A stretch of 34,489 nucleotides of DNA, taken from a virus (taxonomy: Duplodnaviria; Heunggongvirae; Uroviricota; Caudoviricetes). Made by a program: the position numbers and the translations under genes. A model generated the notes under the pieces. The model was given only the letters and a program-made list of their open reading frames with translations. It had not been told where the DNA came from and did not search any database. The stretch lies in IMG/VR virus record IMGVR_UViG_2541047695_000003; one strand, given 5' to 3'. Shown piece by piece: positions 13,274 through 19,175 of this stretch (position 1 is its first letter; each line of letters starts with the position of its first letter).

Positions 13274-14107
13274 ATGAATATTACACAAGATAACTTAGAC
13301 ATTTTCACGGGGTCACATGTTGAAGTCTCCGTGTCTACTATGGTGGATAACCAGCCGGACTTTTTCGATCCTGCATTTAGTCCTATCGAGAACATCGCAG
13401 CATTCCCGACGATAACCGAATCCACAGAGATCCAGACGTTAGAAGAGTATGATCAGGACGCTACGGGGAAACTTGCTGGTTATCGTAAACTTGAATCAAC
13501 TACGTTAGTAGTAAACCGTGTTCTGGATGACGAACATCAAGACATGTTGATGAAAGCGGTGAATGATAAAACTCCTTTACGCTTTCGTATGTTCTATGTT
13601 GTGAACTCTGGCTATAGTGCTGCTAACACAGGTTACTACGTCATTTTTGACGCTTATGTCTCGTCACATAAAACAAAATCCGGTGATAACAAAGTTACTA
13701 CAATCGAGTTTAAATTAGAACCTGATGGCGGGATTCTAGATCGCGGTATTGCTACCGAAGGCCGGATCTTACGTCAAGGTGATTTTGGTTTGGGCGCTGG
13801 TGTACATCCATTCACAGGTCCGATTGATAGCGAAGCATTAGCCGGAAACCGTTTCGTAACTTATCAGGGATCGAGCGTATCTAATCCATTTAGTGCTGAT
13901 ACTTCACTAATTCACGTTCAACCTAATGAAGATGGTGGATGGCAATTAACTTGCACCGCTTCCGGCGCACCACGTTTACGAGTTCGCACAGTCCAGAAAG
14001 ACGGTAATTCTGGATGGGTGAAAGTGTATTCCACAGAAGAAAAACCGACACCAGCCGAGATTGAAGCCGTTTCTATCCATGACCGGATCGACTTCGGGGA
14101 ATACTGA
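13274..14107 (+). CDS. Tail-tube-like protein, long paralog (277 aa) with C-terminal extension
   Basis: N-terminal ~160 aa align by eye with ORF 18705-19175 (DIF(T/S)G...I-x3-AAFP...H-x2-(L/M)-x-KA...DG); C-terminal part carries a KPTPAEI motif identical to one inside the tail fibre (14181-17705). Confidence 0.65.
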   Translation: MNITQDNLDIFTGSHVEVSVSTMVDNQPDFFDPAFSPIENIAAFPTITESTEIQTLEEYDQDATGKLAGYRKLESTTLVVNRVLDDEHQDMLMKAVNDKTPLRFRMFYVVNSGYSAANTGYYVIFDAYVSSHKTKSGDNKVTTIEFKLEPDGGILDRGIATEGRILRQGDFGLGAGVHPFTGPIDSEALAGNRFVTYQGSSVSNPFSADTSLIHVQPNEDGGWQLTCTASGAPRLRVRTVQKDGNSGWVKVYSTEEKPTPAEIEAVSIHDRIDFGEY

Positions 14108-14133
14108 TTGCTTCTCTAAATAAAACATGACGC

Positions 14134-14165
14134 GGGAGGTTAACGCCTCCCTTATTCCTGTTTTA
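14134..14165 (+). terminator. Hairpin GGGAGG-TTAACG-CCTCCC followed by T-rich tract
   Basis: 6-bp GC stem followed by TTATTCCTGTTTTAT; lies between the tube-like gene and the fibre gene. Confidence 0.4.
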
Positions 14166-14180
14166 TAGTGAGGTGATTCG

Positions 14181-17100
14181 ATGCAGTCGATCCAATTTAA
14201 ACGAACAAATGTTTCTGGCAAAAAACCAACGCCGGAACAATTACAGGTCGGTGAGGTAGCAATCAACCTTAAAGACCATGTTATTTTTACCAAAGACCGA
14301 GATCATGAAGTAGTTCAAATCTCTGTTTCTCCTGAAACTCACGCGGCACTAGAATCTAAAGTTGATGCTAATAAAAAAGAACTGGATAGCACAATTGCAG
14401 TAAATGACCGCAATATTCACGCTAAAGTAGATGAAATTAAACAAACTACTGATGCAACCATCGCAGCAAATCACGCAGAAATTAACAATAAAGTTGATGT
14501 AATTAAACGCGAAACCGACGCGACAATCGAGGCCAATAAAAATAAAGCTGCTTCCGATCTTGCTGGTGTTAAAGCTGAATTGTCGGATACCATCAACGCT
14601 AATAAAAATGCGGCTGCTGTAGCAACTCAGGAACTGGACACCCGCATCAATAAAAAAGTTGATGATATTAAATCCCGTACCGATGCAACCATCGCAAGCA
14701 ATGACAAAGCAATCAATGACAAAGTTGATTTGATTAAGGCAGAAACTGACCGCACTATCGCAGCAAATCACGCCTATGCGGAAAATCAGTTAACTGACAC
14801 CTACAATAACCTTACTGGTGTGATTGCAGCCAATAAGCAAGAGGCAGCGGATAACGTCGCAGCATTAACCCGTGATGTTGAAGCCAAAAATACAGCAATT
14901 CATAGCAAAGTTGACAATAACAAGTCTTACACTGATTCTGAATTGGCACGTTTAGAAAGCCGTATTGATGCAGCCGATGGATCTGCTGATGGCAAGTACA
15001 TCAAAAAACACGTAAACACTTATACTGATGGTTATTTGCTGTCTAAGACCGCAAACTATTTTGATGATCCAAATGCGCGTAATCTTGATTACTTTGGTGC
15101 ATTCCGCATGAATGACCTGGCGGGTCATATTGCAATGATCTTGCATGTTCCGCATCCATCTGGTGTTAATCATGCTCGTGGCTTCGAGTTCACTTATGGG
15201 TCTAATCCACATGCTACTGTAAGAACATACGGCTATGATGAATTGGGACATTTGGCATATTCTCACCGCATGTATCATGAAGGTGATAAACCTACTCCGG
15301 CTGAAATTGGCGCATATTCGAAAGCAGAAATTGACCGACTGTTCCAGAAGACGCTTAATTTTGGTATCGAGGGTGGTTGGTTTAAACTAGGCACTTTGAC
15401 AATGCCACAACAACACGGTCGCACGGCTAAGATCCGTTTGGTTGGTGGTAACGGTTATAACGTAGGACATAATGGACAAGCCAATATTATCGAATTGGTG
15501 ATTCGATGCGGCAACAATAGCCCGAAAGGTGTTGTATTCAATGCGTATTATACTATTTGGCATCATGAACAACATTTTTGCGCTATTCCAACCGATGGCG
15601 ACAATTACGATCTTTACGCTTACTACGGTGCACATACAGGATTTGTTTTAGCAGAATATCAAGTTTCTTCCGGTGGTGTTTCTTTAAACCTGTTGGATAC
15701 TCCTGAATATCTGGGTGGTGAAAAACCTGTTGCAGATGAAATTTTTGATGCTCTTAACATTTCATCGTTCAATAACTTTAGCAACCGTGGGACGTTAAAT
15801 TTTGCTGGCAATCATCAAGGCCAATATGATATTGAGCATTTAAACGAACAACCGACAAATGCTAAAAAGATGTTGCGTCGCTTCCGTAGTTGTGCACCAG
15901 CTACAATCTGGCATGAGACAGTTGATGATAACGCATATCGTCTTGCTACTGGATACGAAGATACAAATCAGGAATTATTGCTGTCAGCAACATCCGGGTT
16001 ACATGTCAAGAAATTAACATTGGATGGCGGTGTTACTGGAAATTCTGGTATTGATATTCGTCGAGGACCAAACGAATCAAGCCATTTTAATTTCATGGAT
16101 TATCGCACTGGACAAGATGTTCGTAATGGCTGGTTTGGCTTCGGTGATGGTCAGACCAAAGATTTTATTTGGTGGAACGATAACGGTCAAAACTCTATAA
16201 ACCTGATTGAAGATGGTGAATTGCATATTACTGGCGGTAAAGGCCAGAAAATTGTAATGAATAGCGAAGTTGCATTATCTGAAAATGCTCGTTTGGCTGT
16301 CAAAGGTGGTAACTATGGTTTAATCCTTCGTAATGATGGTTCTAGCTTCCATATTCTTACTACCGATTTAAAAGATTCCTTTGGGACGTGGAACACTCGT
16401 AGACCATTTAGTTATGATTTCGCCGAAGGTGGATTAGATCTAGGTGGCACAGCTACCGCACGCTGTTTACATCTGGGAATTGATGGTAGCACCCGCATCG
16501 AAGATAATATGGTGTTTAGATCAGGGTCTCGTCAGTCAATGGACTATATTGAATTAATCCATTGGGGTAACAGTAATACCGCTCGTAACAACGTTTTGAG
16601 TATGAAAGACTCGAAAGGATTCCTTGCTGAATTTGAACGCGTGGGGGGTACTAACGGCGTTAAAACCAGATTCTTTGGCGAAACATTCACTGACGGTACA
16701 TTATACCTAAATCAGATGAATAATAGCTCTGAACGATTCTCTATCAATAACTGGGGAAATTCAGAAGTTGGTCGCGCGGCAGTGATGGAAGTCGGTGATT
16801 CCAAAGGTTATCACTTCTATACTGAACGTAGGACAGATAACAGTTTGATGTTTGATGTTGCTGGCGCTTTTACTGTGCATGGACCTTCCGGGATTACTAT
16901 CAAAAACTCTGCTGGTGCTCGCCACGTCTGGTTTAGAGATGATAGCGATACGGAAAAGGCTGTTATCTGGGCTACAGATGAGGGTATTTTACATATTCGC
17001 AATAACCACGGTGGACAATTTACACATCACTTCCAGGGCGCGATGATTAAACTGGAAGGGCGTGTTCCTTATGCCGCAGATCAAGGACTTATCCGTGGTG

Positions 17101-18040: not shown

Positions 18041-18042
18041 TT

Positions 18043-18348
18043 ATGGCTGGATGGATAAATCAAAGAATGTCAAACGCTATTAGTATTTGGGCTAATGGTG
18101 GATATTTTGATATCCCCAACGGCTGGGTTACTGATTCATGCGGAATTGTTTTTGCTCATATGGAAGCCATTAACGGTGCTGGTGATCTTGATTCTGAATT
18201 GGCTGTAAATGGATTGATTGAATCAGGTCATCATGCTGGTGATGCTGGGAGTTGGGGCGCTAGTTCTTTAGTTGGCGCTGGTGCTACCGTTAGCTTTACA
18301 TTGGGTAAAGGTAGTTTGCATTATTTTAAATTCAGGAGAATGCACTAA
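18043..18348 (+). CDS. Small Gly-rich protein, tandem paralog 2 of 3 (101 aa)
   Basis: Starts 2 nt after the stop of paralog 1; YFDIPNGW and TVSFTLGKGSLHYFKF motifs. Confidence 0.7.
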   Translation: MAGWINQRMSNAISIWANGGYFDIPNGWVTDSCGIVFAHMEAINGAGDLDSELAVNGLIESGHHAGDAGSWGASSLVGAGATVSFTLGKGSLHYFKFRRMH

Positions 18349-18650
18349 TGGCATTTTGGGTAGATGGCGCTTTGGGGAATAGGGCGGGTAAAGCAAATCA
18401 AGGATGGTTTGATATTCCTAACGGTTGGACAGCCGACGCTTTCGGGACTATTTCATTCTGTGCTCATTCTTCCGGTGGTGGCGGTGGTGACTCTGAATTG
18501 CTTATTCATGGTTTGTGTGTTTCTGGAAGCCATAAGGGTCATGATTGGGGACAGATTCATTCTTGTATTGCACCGCAAGGGGCGGTAATTACCGTTAGCA
18601 CAAATAGGGGGATCGCTCATCTTCGTTATAGACGTTTGAGCAACCGCTAA
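18348..18650 (+). CDS. Small Gly-rich protein, tandem paralog 3 of 3 (100 aa)
   Basis: TAATG overlap with paralog 2; WFDIPNGW motif, GGGGGD loop; C-terminus divergent (no YFKF). Confidence 0.7.
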   Translation: MAFWVDGALGNRAGKANQGWFDIPNGWTADAFGTISFCAHSSGGGGGDSELLIHGLCVSGSHKGHDWGQIHSCIAPQGAVITVSTNRGIAHLRYRRLSNR

Positions 18651-18704
18651 ATAAATAGAATTACGGGTATGTGCCCTATTGTTTAAAATAGAAGGAAAAG
18701 AATA

Positions 18705-19175
18705 ATGACTACTAAATTTGATATTTTTTCTGGTGGCCTCGTTGGTCTGTTTCTGCATGAAGAAGTAACTAACACCGATCTTGACAGTGAAAGCTATCTG
18801 GAAATTCCAGAATGTGCGGCTTTCCCGGAAACTGGTGTAGAACGTTCTACTATCGATGTTCCTAACTTCGGTGGTCCGTATAACCGTAAGCTGGTTGGTC
18901 GTATGTCTGTACCGGATATCGAACTTTCGATCAACTACATGCCGGGTAACGAAGTACACGAAAAACTGATTAAAGCAACCGAAGACGGTAAGCGCGTACA
19001 GCTTAAAATTGCTTACTACATCGACGCTACGAAAAAATCTGGTGTACATATCGCTTATAACGGCTTCCTGTCTAAAACTACCATGACTGGTGGTGAGGAT
19101 GCTGTAGTAGGCCGTACCTTCACCTTTGTAGTAGATGGTGCTCCGGTTAAACAAGCTGTTTTCCAGAAACTCTAA
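18705..19175 (+). CDS. Major tail (tube) protein candidate, short paralog (156 aa)
   Basis: Directly precedes the tail-assembly chaperone pair and tape measure (canonical tube position); followed by a strong terminator as is typical for abundant structural genes; paralogous to N-terminus of 13274-14107. Confidence 0.6.
   Translation: MTTKFDIFSGGLVGLFLHEEVTNTDLDSESYLEIPECAAFPETGVERSTIDVPNFGGPYNRKLVGRMSVPDIELSINYMPGNEVHEKLIKATEDGKRVQLKIAYYIDATKKSGVHIAYNGFLSKTTMTGGEDAVVGRTFTFVVDGAPVKQAVFQKL

What the first reader, a model, noticed from the sequence alone, without database searches (positions are those of the whole stretch)
13274..19175. Two paralogous tail-tube-like genes flank the fibre cassette, and the long paralog shares a KPTPAEI motif with the fibre
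ORF 13274-14107 (277 aa) and ORF 18705-19175 (156 aa) align across ~150 residues (DIF(T/S)G, AAFP, conserved His/Lys/Asp-Gly positions). Between them lie the 1174-aa fibre and three small paralogs. The long copy has a ~120-aa C-terminal extension whose end (EEKPTPAEIEAVS) matches a 7-residue string inside the fibre (GDKPTPAEIGAYS). This suggests a duplicated tube gene in which one copy became a fibre-docking or decorated tube subunit, or a recombination-driven module insertion between tube duplicates.
Basis: seen in the sequence. Interest (0 to 1): 0.6.

Follow-up and report, generated by a model that had tools for sequence, protein, structure and literature searches.

The report
Tail-tube paralog that anchors a fibre
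An E. coli prophage carries a second, diverged copy of its tail-tube gene that ends in the connector used by phage T4 protein gp36 to hold the gp37 tail fibre, so it most likely mounts a T4-type fibre on a lambda-type tail, an attachment mode not described before.

Summary
ORF 13274-14107 (277 aa) and ORF 18705-19175 (156 aa) are true paralogs: profile-profile probability is 98.6% (E 5.5e-16 over 157 columns), and both models match the lambda gpV tail tube best.

The window is a lambda-like E. coli prophage. The short copy, upstream of the tail chaperones and followed by a conserved terminator, is the likely major tube protein.

The long copy is a tube domain, a conserved Gly-rich linker and globule, and a C-terminal tail (...KPTPAEIEAVSIHDRIDFGEY). 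That tail matches the C-terminus of T4-type gp36 (T4 ...VQDFGYY; phage G37-3 ...KPTPAEVGAVPLNAVIDFGTF).

The next gene is a gp37 orthologue, 77% identical to G37-3 gp37 over 890 residues. It starts with the gp37 N-terminal domain, the region that gp36 binds in T4.

In about 70 related loci the pairing "DFGxY end, then gp37-type start" holds almost without exception, including at internal junctions of two-piece fibres. More than 100 protein clusters in Enterobacterales prophages carry the same tube-domain head fused to whole fibres.

KPTPAEI is a hallmark of gp36/gp37 modules, not the docking site itself.

Best reading: a tube-fold ring that anchors side fibres. This is inferred, not shown, and its position on the tail is unknown.

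The parts
12510..12532 (+). Intrinsic-terminator-like hairpin plus T-run after the protease-capsid fusion gene
   Evidence: (9-bp stem, 6 GC, TTTTTTG).
12568..12858 (+). Head-closure (lambda FII-like) protein, 96 aa
   Evidence: Pfam Phage_attach 2.2e-5 and PHROG 161 'head closure Hc1' 1.8e-3. Conserved in all related loci.
12842..13264 (+). 140-aa conserved protein, candidate tail terminator (weak)
   Evidence: PGAP start. 2 of 15 family members weakly hit tail-terminator PHROGs 78 (1e-3) and 176 (0.025). hhalign to lambda gpU aligns equivalent positions at E 0.056 only. No Pfam or PDB sequence hit.
13274..14107 (+). Long tube paralog (277 aa), proposed fibre anchor
13274..13753 (+). Lambda-gpV-like tail-tube domain of the long paralog (aa 1-160)
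13754..14020 (+). Conserved Gly-rich linker (aa 161-192, GDFGxGAG...GNRF) and small globule (aa 193-249) of the anchor module
   Evidence: Invariant G158, G163, D170, G172, G174, G176, G182, D185, G191, N192, R193. Profile positions up to ~256-269 are matched in more than 100 fibre-length proteins. Aligns to fibre residues 300-380. Poorly modelled, pLDDT <50.
14021..14104 (+). gp36-type C-terminal joint (aa 250-277, KVYSTEEKPTPAEIEAVSIHDRIDFGEY); KPTPAEI lies at 14042-14062
   Evidence: 46% identity, E 3e-5, to the last 28 residues of G37-3 gp36. T4 gp36 ends ..VQDFGYY. The end motif is conserved in all long paralogs and in internal fibre segments.
14134..14151 (+). Hairpin after the long paralog (weak terminator-like)
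   Evidence: A hairpin is present at this position in most relatives examined, but the T-run is poor.
14181..17705 (+). T4 gp37-type tail fibre (1174 aa)
   Evidence: PHROG 1699 'long tail fiber distal subunit' 2e-136; Pfam Gp34_trimer (aa 644-745) and Peptidase_S74 (aa 1064-1123). 77% identity to G37-3 gp37 over residues 285-1174.
14181..14330 (+). gp37-type N-terminal joint domain of the fibre (aa 1-50, MQSIQFKRTNVSGKKPTPEQLQVGEVAINLKDHVIFTKD...)
   Evidence: Aligns with T4 and G37-3 gp37 N-termini. phmmer with T4 gp37 residues 1-52 finds the gene after the long paralog in the related loci at E<=1e-3.
14355..15032 (+). About 225-aa coiled-coil repeat insertion (aa ~59-284), absent from G37-3 gp37
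   Evidence: Gap between the two BLASTP segments. Weak Apolipoprotein repeat hit over aa 78-249.
15288..15308 (+). KPTPAEI motif inside the fibre (aa 370-376), at the end of the first gp37 globule
   Evidence: Nucleotide homology to the T4-like phage G37-3 starts at 15267, just upstream.
15267..18666 (+). Stretch 87.5% identical in DNA to the T4-like phage G37-3 (gp37 distal part plus three small ORFs)
   Evidence: query 2268-5667 of window:13000-19400; annotation.
17744..18650 (+). Three paralogous ~100-aa ORFs in the position of gp38 (function unknown)
   Evidence: The same three genes follow gp37 in G37-3.
18705..19175 (+). Short tube paralog (156 aa), likely the major tail tube protein
   Evidence: PHROG 158 at 3.4e-20. 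Pfam Phage_TTP_12 scores 23.3 bits, below the 26.1 cut-off. Foldseek best hit is lambda gpV. Lies directly upstream of the chaperone genes. PGAP calls it 'phage tail protein'.
19184..19203 (+). Strong intrinsic-terminator-like hairpin plus T-run after the short tube gene
   Evidence: An equivalent GC hairpin plus T-run follows the short paralog in L001, L003, L005, L006, L008, L050, L053, L058 and L073.
19258..19937 (+). Tail assembly chaperone genes (G-like 19258-19566, T-like 19596-19937)
   Evidence: Pfam Phage_TAC_13 1.9e-4, Phage_tail_T 2e-4; PHROG 344.
19949..22378 (+). Tape measure protein (809 aa)
   Evidence: Position and length; synteny with related loci.

Best explanation
The window is a lambda-like temperate siphophage of E. 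coli whose tail module holds two paralogous lambda-gpV-type tube genes.

The short copy (18705-19175) is the ordinary major tube protein.

The long copy (13274-14107) is a specialised fibre anchor. Its N-terminal 160 residues keep the tube fold and, by inference, take a tube-subunit position in one or a few rings of the tail. Its C-terminal 117 residues are a conserved linker and globule ending in the same C-terminal joint that T4-type gp36 uses to hold gp37.

The gene immediately downstream (14181-17705) is a gp37 orthologue that starts with the cognate gp37 N-terminal domain. I infer that trimers of the anchor's C-terminal tails bind the N-terminal end of the trimeric fibre, as gp36 binds gp37 in T4. 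The tube-fold domain would then replace T4's gp34/gp35/baseplate socket as the mount. A hexameric ring would carry two fibres and two rings would carry four.

Because the joint is the T4-type one, fibre parts can be exchanged with T-even phages while the anchor stays.

Shown here:
- the paralogy and the shared fold;
- homology of both joint elements to gp36 and gp37;
- the near-invariant pairing of the two elements across about 70 loci;
- the family of tube-headed fibres.

Inferred:
- physical docking;
- ring formation;
- stoichiometry;
- position on the tail (near the tip or near the neck).
For: - Paralogy and fold.
- Short copy as the major tube protein. It lies directly upstream of the chaperone and tape-measure genes. 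It has stronger tube-family scores. A conserved strong terminator follows it, as one follows the capsid gene.
- The joint, gp36 side. The long copy's last 28 residues match the gp36 C-terminus of the T4-like phage G37-3 (46% identity, E 3e-5). T4 gp36 ends ..DFGYY.
- The joint, gp37 side. The fibre's first 50 residues match the N-termini of T4 and G37-3 gp37. The rest of the fibre is 77% identical to G37-3 gp37.
- In T4, trimeric gp36 binds the N-terminal region of gp37 (review PMC3004832).
- Pairing rule, over 1145 ORFs of 100 aa or more in the related loci. 64 ORFs have the D[FLMA]Gx[YFL] end and are followed by a gp37-N-type gene. 6 have the end only; 4 of these are at contig ends and 2 are followed by an N-domain seen by eye but below threshold (by-eye comparison). 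3 have the follower only, after degenerate tails. 1072 have neither.
- The pair recurs at internal junctions of two-piece fibres in Proteus L005 and Klebsiella L008. Terminal fibre pieces lack the end motif.
- Length of the long copy ranges from about 275 to 699 aa through added gp36-like modules, always keeping the end motif.
- A profile of the long copy finds 142 cluster representatives at E<=1e-10. More than 100 of them are 560-1560-aa proteins whose first ~240-270 residues are this anchor module. Those that carry a source name are called tail fibre, tail-fiber-domain or pyocin-knob-domain proteins and come from Serratia, Leclercia and Rouxiella; a Kluyvera one is 'hypothetical'.
- Two of these proteins sit in the same synteny. 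One contains a Pfam T4 gp36 domain above cut-off (28.8 vs 26 bits).
Against: - There is no experimental or structure-prediction evidence for docking. The gp36-gp37 junction has no solved structure in the PDB copy searched.
- The anchor's C-terminal half is modelled poorly (pLDDT <50).
- The window's long copy does not hit Pfam Phage_T4_gp36. Similarity to gp36 is limited to the last ~28 residues plus generic module features.
- A six-fold tube ring and a three-fold fibre pose a symmetry problem that I cannot resolve.
- Nothing tested discriminates where the ring sits, or whether the tube-like domain is in line with the tube at all. Ribosome-binding sites and composition do not separate the two copies.
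- The loci are related, so the pairing counts are not independent events, although about 40 distinct architectures are represented.
Confidence: 0.65

Rival explanations
1. The long copy co-polymerises with the short copy along the whole tube as a decorated tube subunit, as with the lambda gpV Ig domain or SPP1 gp17.1*. Fibres or fibre stubs would then decorate the length of the tail.
For: It retains the complete tube fold, including the N-terminal DIFxG arm and the long loop with the KLxG motif shared with the short copy. Both genes have good ribosome-binding sites. Decorated tube proteins are common (own knowledge; SPP1 and lambda cited hits).
Against: - The C-terminal part is not an Ig or FN3 decoration. 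It is a fibre joint followed by a cognate 1174-aa fibre.
- Decorating about 30 rings with gp37-size trimers would need more fibre mass than capsid mass (inference).
- In relatives the same head is fused to whole 900-1500-aa fibres, which is hard to reconcile with a bulk tube subunit.
- Known specialised tube-fold paralogs occupy defined rings (T4 gp48/54/3, lambda M/U, T5 p140; own knowledge).
Confidence: 0.1
2. The long copy is the tail terminator or a neck-level ring, as its position right after the head-closure genes might suggest. The fibre would then be a neck or collar fibre rather than a tip-proximal side fibre.
For: The gene order is head closure, 140-aa protein, long copy, fibre, tube gene. 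Terminators share the tube fold (and own knowledge). The identity of the 140-aa protein as terminator is only weakly supported.
Against: - The long copy is much closer to tube proteins than to terminators. It cross-hits the phage's own tube family at about 1e-16.
- hhalign to lambda gpU gives nothing.
- A separate conserved 140-aa gene with weak terminator signals exists.
- A ring next to the terminator, rather than replacing it, remains possible and is compatible with the main explanation.
Confidence: 0.12
3. The tube-like domain does not enter the tube stack. It forms an external collar, or only an oligomerisation head for the fibre, which binds the outside of the tail as the N-terminal collar domains of Ur-lambda Stf do.
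For: All solved siphophage side-fibre attachments use external collars or loops, not in-line rings. In relatives the head is simply the N-terminus of a fibre protein.
Against: The domain is a full-length homologue of the phage's own tube protein, with the same secondary-structure order and conserved arm and loop motifs. The simplest reading is a tube-like position. Known collar domains are Ig-like or OB folds.
Confidence: 0.1
4. The arrangement is a by-product of a recent insertion of a fibre cassette between tandem tube duplicates. The long copy's fibre-like end would be a recombination scar without docking function.
For: The distal fibre and the three small ORFs are 87.5% identical in DNA to a T4-like phage. 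The block long copy, fibre, short copy is the variable part between near-identical flanks in E. coli.
Against: - The architecture and both joint elements are conserved across genera at 35-65% protein identity.
- The end motif is under purifying selection: synonymous differences surround an identical peptide.
- The motif pair recurs at internal fibre junctions.
- DNA homology to T4-like phages starts inside the fibre, not at the long copy.
Confidence: 0.03

Closest known systems
T4 long tail fibre distal half: gp36 (connector) joined to gp37
   Same: The fibre is a gp37 orthologue: 77% identical to Krischvirus G37-3 gp37, with the same N-terminal domain as T4 gp37. The long copy ends with the gp36-type C-terminal tail. 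The gene order connector then gp37 is the same. In T4, trimeric gp36 binds the gp37 N-terminal region (PMC3004832).
   Different: The connector is fused to a tail-tube domain instead of joining gp35/gp34 and a baseplate socket. The window protein lacks the Pfam gp36 core domain. The host particle is a lambda-like siphophage, not a myovirus. The fibre has an extra ~225-aa coiled-coil insert.
Lambda gpV-type major tail tube protein
   Same: Both copies have the gpV N-domain fold and hit the same PHROG. The short copy has the canonical position upstream of the G/T chaperones and the tape measure gene.
   Different: There are two separate paralogous genes only ~20% identical. The long copy carries a fibre joint instead of gpV's C-terminal Ig-like domain. 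Neither reaches the Pfam gathering score.
T5 p140 tube-fold ring with p132 collar (side-fibre platform)
   Different: In T5 the fibres attach through a separate Ig-like collar protein around the ring. Here the tube-fold protein itself would carry the fibre joint. There is no sequence relationship.
Ur-lambda side tail fibre Stf
   Same: Both are non-central side fibres on a lambda-like tail with a gp37-related distal part. Trimeric fibres are mounted on a six-fold tail through N-terminal mounting domains arranged as a ring (12 domains for 4 fibres) (PMC12617516).
   Different: Stf mounts by its own Ig-like collar domain outside the gpV-gpM junction, and its gene follows J. Here the mount is a tube paralog encoded before the tube gene, and the fibre is a separate polypeptide joined by a gp36/gp37-type joint.
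SPP1 gp17.1 / gp17.1* and other decorated tube proteins
   Same: Two tube-protein species are present, one with a C-terminal extension.
   Different: In SPP1 both come from one gene by frameshift and the extension is an FN3 decoration (own knowledge; papers listed). Here there are two diverged genes and the extension is a fibre connector.

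Membership tests
Lambda gpV-like tail tube protein (fold level) | Tube fold: beta-sandwich flanked by one helix, with a long inter-ring loop | tested here: met
Lambda gpV-like tail tube protein (Pfam Phage_TTP_11/12) | Score above the Pfam gathering threshold | tested here: not met
   Short copy scores 23.3 bits vs 26.1 (TTP_12) and 18.9 vs 28.4 (TTP_11). Long copy has no hit at E<=0.1. Both do hit PHROG 158 'major tail protein'.
Major tail tube protein (functional role) | Gene directly upstream of the G/T tail chaperone genes and the tape measure gene | tested here: met
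   Met for the short copy. Not met for the long copy, which is separated from them by the fibre cassette.
Major tail tube protein (functional role) | Polymerises as stacked hexameric rings around the tape measure protein | not testable with these tools
   Needs virion structure or in vitro assembly.
T4 gp36 (long tail fibre distal connector, Pfam PF03903) | Pfam Phage_T4_gp36 core domain | tested here: not met
   No hit for the window protein or its C-terminal 120 residues, even at E<=10. Controls: T4 gp36 9.6e-53, G37-3 gp36 3.3e-6. A 1209-aa Serratia member of the tube-headed family scores 28.8 bits, above the 26 cut-off.
T4 gp36 (long tail fibre distal connector) | C-terminal tail ..(KPTxxE/DxxA)..x(I/V)DFGx(Y/F)-COOH | tested here: met
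   BLASTP of the last 28 residues against the G37-3 gp36 end: 46% identity, E 3e-5. T4 gp36 ends IKDSVQDFGYY. Right-anchored comparison.
T4 gp36 (long tail fibre distal connector) | Encoded immediately upstream of a gp37-type gene with the cognate N-terminal domain | tested here: met
   Seen in the window and in 64 of 70 motif-bearing ORFs across related loci; 4 of the 6 exceptions lie at contig ends and 2 have a follower below the search threshold. T4 and G37-3 have the same order.
T4 gp36 (long tail fibre distal connector) | Trimer that binds the N-terminal region of gp37 | not testable with these tools
   Known for T4 (PMC3004832). No solved structure of gp36 was found.
T4 gp37-type long tail fibre distal subunit (for the 1174-aa fibre) | gp37 N-terminal domain, gp37 shaft, C-terminal region | tested here: met
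   PHROG 1699 at 2e-136. 77% identity to G37-3 gp37 over 890 residues and 36% over the N-terminal 58. 87.5% DNA identity. The C-terminus is an S74 intramolecular chaperone, as in G37-3 and unlike T4 itself.
Tail terminator (lambda gpU-like), considered for the long copy | Closer to terminator families than to tube proteins; no other terminator candidate present | tested here: not met
Decorated tube protein (Ig/FN3 C-terminal domain) | C-terminal Ig-like or FN3 domain | tested here: not met
   No Big_2, fn3 or Ig hit at E<=10. The weak hits of the C-terminal part are nearly all to tail-fibre PHROGs; the rest have no assigned function.
Distal tail protein (Dit) | Gene directly after the tape measure gene; tube-fold N-domain plus decoration | tested here: not met
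   A separate 186-aa gene follows the tape measure gene (22429-22989). Its homologues carry a weak DTP-pb9 hit.

The most novel reading that the evidence does not exclude
Enterobacterial lambda-like prophages use a so far undescribed way of mounting side fibres. A dedicated paralog of the tail tube protein forms a fibre-bearing ring in the tube itself. It presents the T4 gp36-type plug, so that gp37-type fibres become interchangeable between temperate siphophages and virulent T-even myoviruses. In many relatives the tube-fold head is fused directly to the whole fibre.
Probability: 0.5. Interest if true: 0.7.

Novelty: new variant of a known kind. Interest (0 to 1): 0.6.

Why it matters
A 2026 structural paper lists four side-fibre attachment modes in siphophage-type tails: the Dit loop in monocin, the Stf collar in Ur-lambda, the separate collar in T5, and attachment to the central-fibre shaft in F-pyocin. 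A tube-fold head that carries the fibre would be a fifth mode.

It is common. More than 100 clusters at 50% identity carry it in Enterobacterales prophages. It is absent from cultured phages in the collection searched, apart from one chimeric record.

It would also show how tube-fold proteins diversify into new tail parts.

The gp36/gp37 joint appears to be a portable plug-and-socket that is used across phage families. That is directly useful for engineering host range, for example putting T-even fibres on lambda-type particles or tailocins. It also explains the 87% DNA identity between a prophage fibre and a virulent T4-like phage.

Finally, it gives a sequence-level definition of the still unsolved gp36-gp37 junction.

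Tried and rejected
- Genome-contig scan with the long-copy profile: pattern hits but no confirmed relative.
- PDB sequence searches with profiles of the long family, the short family and the 140-aa family, with T4 gp36, and with the long copy's C-terminal 120 residues: nothing meaningful.
- Pfam on the C-terminal part and on the 140-aa family: nothing.
- hhalign of family profiles against single lambda sequences (gpU, gpZ, gpV): insensitive. At best E 0.036-0.056 at equivalent positions.
- Literature phrase search for 'two major tail proteins': only frameshift or decoration cases and irrelevant uses, for example JBD30.
- PDB chain 9occ_B, named 'putative neck whiskers protein', looked like a lead for a second tube-fold protein. 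It is simply the Sf11 tube protein gp24.
- Ribosome-binding sites, GC and GC3 do not distinguish the two copies.
- My first regular expression for the fibre N-terminal motif was too strict. I replaced it with a phmmer search using T4 gp37 residues 1-52.
- A gene-by-gene identity table was made to look for co-variation of the long copy with the terminator, the tube protein or Dit. It shows that the block long copy, fibre, short copy is the variable cassette, but it does not reveal the ring's neighbours.
- tblastn of tube-headed fibre heads against cultured phages: only the chimeric DCP80 record.

Full report
**What the window is.** The region lies in the late operon of a lambda-like temperate siphophage of E. 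coli. The gene order on the + strand is:
- large terminase (6327-8234);
- portal (8815-10326);
- a protease-capsid fusion (10372-12372);
- an FII-like head-closure protein (12568-12858);
- a 140-aa protein (12842-13264);
- the 277-aa long tube-like ORF (13274-14107);
- a 1174-aa fibre (14181-17705);
- three ~100-aa ORFs (17744-18650);
- the 156-aa short tube-like ORF (18705-19175);
- G- and T-like tail chaperones (19258-19937);
- tape measure (19949-22378);
- Dit-, L-, DUF6950- and J-like tip genes.

A 97% identical copy sits in E. coli PEC41 as a ~36-kb prophage inserted in ycdX next to a large serine recombinase. 54 of 5426 complete E. coli genomes match this stretch.

**Check of the observation.**
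- Pairwise BLASTP of the two tube-like proteins gives 20% identity over 138 residues, E 3e-4.
- I collected homologues of each: 82 and 32 clusters from E. coli, Shigella, Salmonella, Providencia, Edwardsiella, Proteus and Klebsiella. I aligned representative sets as A1 and A2.
- Profile-profile comparison gives 98.6% probability, E 5.5e-16, over 157 columns. It spans the whole short protein and residues 3-166 of the long one.
- In every related locus fetched later, each paralog cross-hits the other family's HMM at 1e-9 to 1e-21; one 5'-truncated copy (L066) reaches only 7e-4.
- Both hit PHROG 158 'major tail protein' over the same profile region.
- AlphaFold models give a confident tube-like core for both, with the same order of strands and helix.
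- Foldseek puts the lambda gpV and YDC107 tail tubes first for both.

The shared KPTPAEI heptapeptide lies at long copy residues 257-263 and fibre residues 370-376. Only 14 of 20,000 shuffles share any 7-mer with the fibre. It lies in an 83-residue local alignment (30% identity, E 0.003). The DNA under it is only 34/63 identical, so it is a selected peptide, not a copied stretch of DNA.

**Which copy is the tube protein.** Three things favour the short copy as the bulk tube subunit.
- It lies directly upstream of the chaperone and tape-measure genes.
- It has the stronger tube-family scores.
- It is followed by a strong GC hairpin plus T-run (19184-19203), like the one after the capsid gene (12510-12532). 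An equivalent terminator follows the short copy in nine diverse relatives.

This is indirect evidence. Ribosome-binding sites and composition do not separate the two genes.

**What the long copy's extension is.** The C-terminal 120 residues hit no Pfam family. They hit tail-fibre PHROGs only weakly.

Homologues of the long copy vary from about 275 to 699 aa. The extra length is made of repeated fibre modules, each ending in '..(Y)(S/H)xx(N)KPTxx(D/E)xGA..'. All of them keep the extreme C-terminus '..(I/V/L)D(F/L/A)Gx(Y/F/L)'.

The decisive pattern appeared when I listed the genes between the two paralogs in many loci. I used 61 IMG/VR loci found with the A1 profile plus contigs for individual homologues. 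The gene after the long copy always starts 'M..IQFKR(T/S)..G.KPT...L..GE.AINL.D..I(Y/F)TK'.

Where the fibre is split into two polypeptides, the pattern repeats inside the fibre. This is seen in Proteus L005 (198 aa + 675 aa) and Klebsiella L008 (849 aa + 470 aa). The first piece ends '..DFGTF' or '..DMGTY', and the second piece starts with the same N-terminal domain. Terminal pieces lack the end motif.

**Link to T4.** The distal two thirds of the fibre and the three small ORFs are 87.5% identical in DNA to the T4-like Krischvirus G37-3. There they are gp37 and three genes in the gp38 position. At protein level, fibre residues 285-1174 are 77% identical to residues 71-954 of G37-3 gp37. Residues 1-58 align with its N-terminus. 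The prophage protein has an extra ~225-residue coiled-coil insert between the two.
- G37-3 gp36, encoded just upstream of gp37, ends 'ELYHEGHKPTPAEVGAVPLNAVIDFGTF'. That is 46% identical (E 3e-5) to the last 28 residues of the long copy.
- T4 gp36 ends '..IKDSVQDFGYY'.
- T4 gp37 starts '[42 protein letters not shown]'.
- In T4, trimeric gp36 binds the N-terminal region of gp37 (PMC3004832).

I then used T4 gp37 residues 1-52 as a phmmer query on all ORFs of the related loci. Among 1145 ORFs of 100 aa or more:
- 64 have the D[FLMA]Gx[YFL] end and are followed by a gp37-N-type gene;
- 6 have the end only (4 at contig ends; 2 with an N-domain visible by eye but below threshold, by-eye comparison);
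- 3 have the follower only (degenerate tails such as ..IDFGLE);
- 1072 have neither.

The loci are related, so these are not independent events. About 40 distinct architectures are represented.

**A wider family.** A full HMM search of 1.84 billion cluster representatives with the A1 profile found 278 hits at E<=1e-3 and 142 at E<=1e-10. More than 100 of them are proteins of 560-1560 aa. Their first ~240-270 residues match profile positions ~9-256. That region comprises the tube domain, the invariant Gly-rich 'GDFGxGAG...GNxF' linker, a small globule and the 'vYs..KPT' motif.

Those that carry a source name are called tail fibre, tail-fiber-domain or pyocin-knob-domain proteins and come from Serratia, Leclercia and Rouxiella; a Kluyvera one is 'hypothetical'. 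Two sit in the same synteny as the window:
- 142-aa protein, 1209-aa tube-headed protein, S74 fibre piece, 156-aa tube protein, chaperones;
- 138-aa protein, 1349-aa tube-headed fibre ending in S74, 151-aa tube protein, chaperones.

The Serratia protein contains a Pfam T4 gp36 domain above threshold and ends '..NDTFDEGTF'. The window's 277-aa protein is therefore the minimal version of a conserved anchor module: the head plus only the gp36-type plug.

Among cultured phages only the record DCP80 carries the module. That record looks like a chimera.

**Mechanism proposed.** The long copy is a fibre anchor. Its tube-fold domain mounts on the tail, most simply as one or two rings in line with the tube. 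Its C-terminal tails, as trimers, hold the N-terminal end of the gp37-type fibre, as gp36 does in T4.

A hexamer would give two fibres and two rings would give four. Ur-lambda solves the same mismatch with 12 collar domains for 4 fibres (PMC12617516).

Homology and the pairing rule are shown. Docking, ring formation, stoichiometry and position on the tail are inferred.

The 140-aa protein upstream is only weakly supported as the terminator.

**Mosaicism.** Across E. coli copies the 140-aa gene stays at 97% identity or more (one exception, L036, at 47%). The Dit gene stays at 95% or more in all but L006/L007 (87-92%). The G-type chaperone is at 92% or more in most loci, falling to 63-68% in two. 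Between them:
- the long copy's head ranges from 56 to 100%;
- its tail from 67 to 100%;
- the fibre from about 31 to 100%;
- the short tube protein falls into alleles of 94% or more, or about 59%.

So the block long copy, fibre, short copy is the exchangeable cassette inside a fixed frame. The order itself is old. It is conserved at 35-65% protein identity across genera. DNA homology to the T4-like phage starts at 15267, just before the fibre's KPTPAEI motif. This fits the motif marking module boundaries where exchange occurs.

**Comparison with known systems and novelty.** The parts are known: the gpV-type tube fold, gp36/gp37-type fibre modules and an S74 chaperone. The combination is not. 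A 2026 structural paper lists four side-fibre attachment modes: Dit loop, Stf Ig-like collar, T5 collar, and F-pyocin OB domain on the central fibre. My literature searches found no description of a tube-fold-headed fibre or anchor.

I rate it a new variant of a known kind. The family is common in Enterobacterales prophages but unstudied. Confidence in the anchor reading is about 0.65. Its in-line-ring form is about even odds.

Noticed in passing
window 17744-18650: Three tandem paralogous ~100-aa ORFs with a shared FDIPNG(W/Y) motif follow the fibre. The same trio follows gp37 in the T4-like phage G37-3, in the position of gp38 (87.5% DNA identity). No family hit; function unknown. They could be tip adhesins or assembly factors for an S74-type gp37. 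Some E. coli copies of the prophage have fibres without them.
   Followed up: partly
window 14355-15032 (fibre aa ~59-284): A ~225-residue coiled-coil repeat segment with a weak apolipoprotein-like hit lies between the gp37 N-terminal joint and the first gp37 globule. It is absent from G37-3 gp37 and would lengthen the fibre.
   Followed up: partly
L001 / L075 (GenBank PQ671644, Escherichia phage DCP80): This is the only cultured-phage record with the module. It is a 141-kb 'Gaprivervirus' whose first ~26 kb are a lambda-like siphophage structural module. T4-like genes follow, with rIIA present twice in opposite orientation. It looks like a chimeric assembly of two phages.
   Followed up: partly
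window 18705-19175 versus loci L023-L046, L006, L007: The short tube protein occurs as alleles only ~59% identical, in prophages whose terminator-like and Dit genes, and in most loci the G chaperone, are 92-100% identical. Very different tube proteins therefore work with the same partners.
   Followed up: partly
window 12510-12532 and 19184-19203: Canonical intrinsic-terminator-like hairpins follow the capsid gene and the short tube gene inside the late operon. The one after the tube gene is conserved across genera.
   Followed up: partly
window 10372-12372: Prohead protease (S78) and HK97-type major capsid protein are fused in one 666-aa ORF, joined by a long acidic low-complexity linker. The fusion is conserved in all relatives.
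   Followed up: no
L008 / L009 (Klebsiella aerogenes): Gene order is rearranged. The short tube gene is followed by the DUF6950 and J-like tip genes. The chaperone and tape-measure genes come only after an endonuclease VII gene.
   Followed up: no
L002 26989-27969 (E. coli PEC41): An IS5 element sits between the short tube gene and a truncated tape-measure gene, so this otherwise 97% identical prophage copy is probably defective.
   Followed up: no
window 31344-33038 (- strand): A large serine recombinase lies at the prophage end. In PEC41 the element interrupts ycdX (zinc-binding phosphatase).
   Followed up: no
PDB 9occ chain B: The Sf11 tail tube protein gp24 is labelled 'putative neck whiskers protein' in the PDB entry. 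The paper identifies it as the tube protein.
   Followed up: yes
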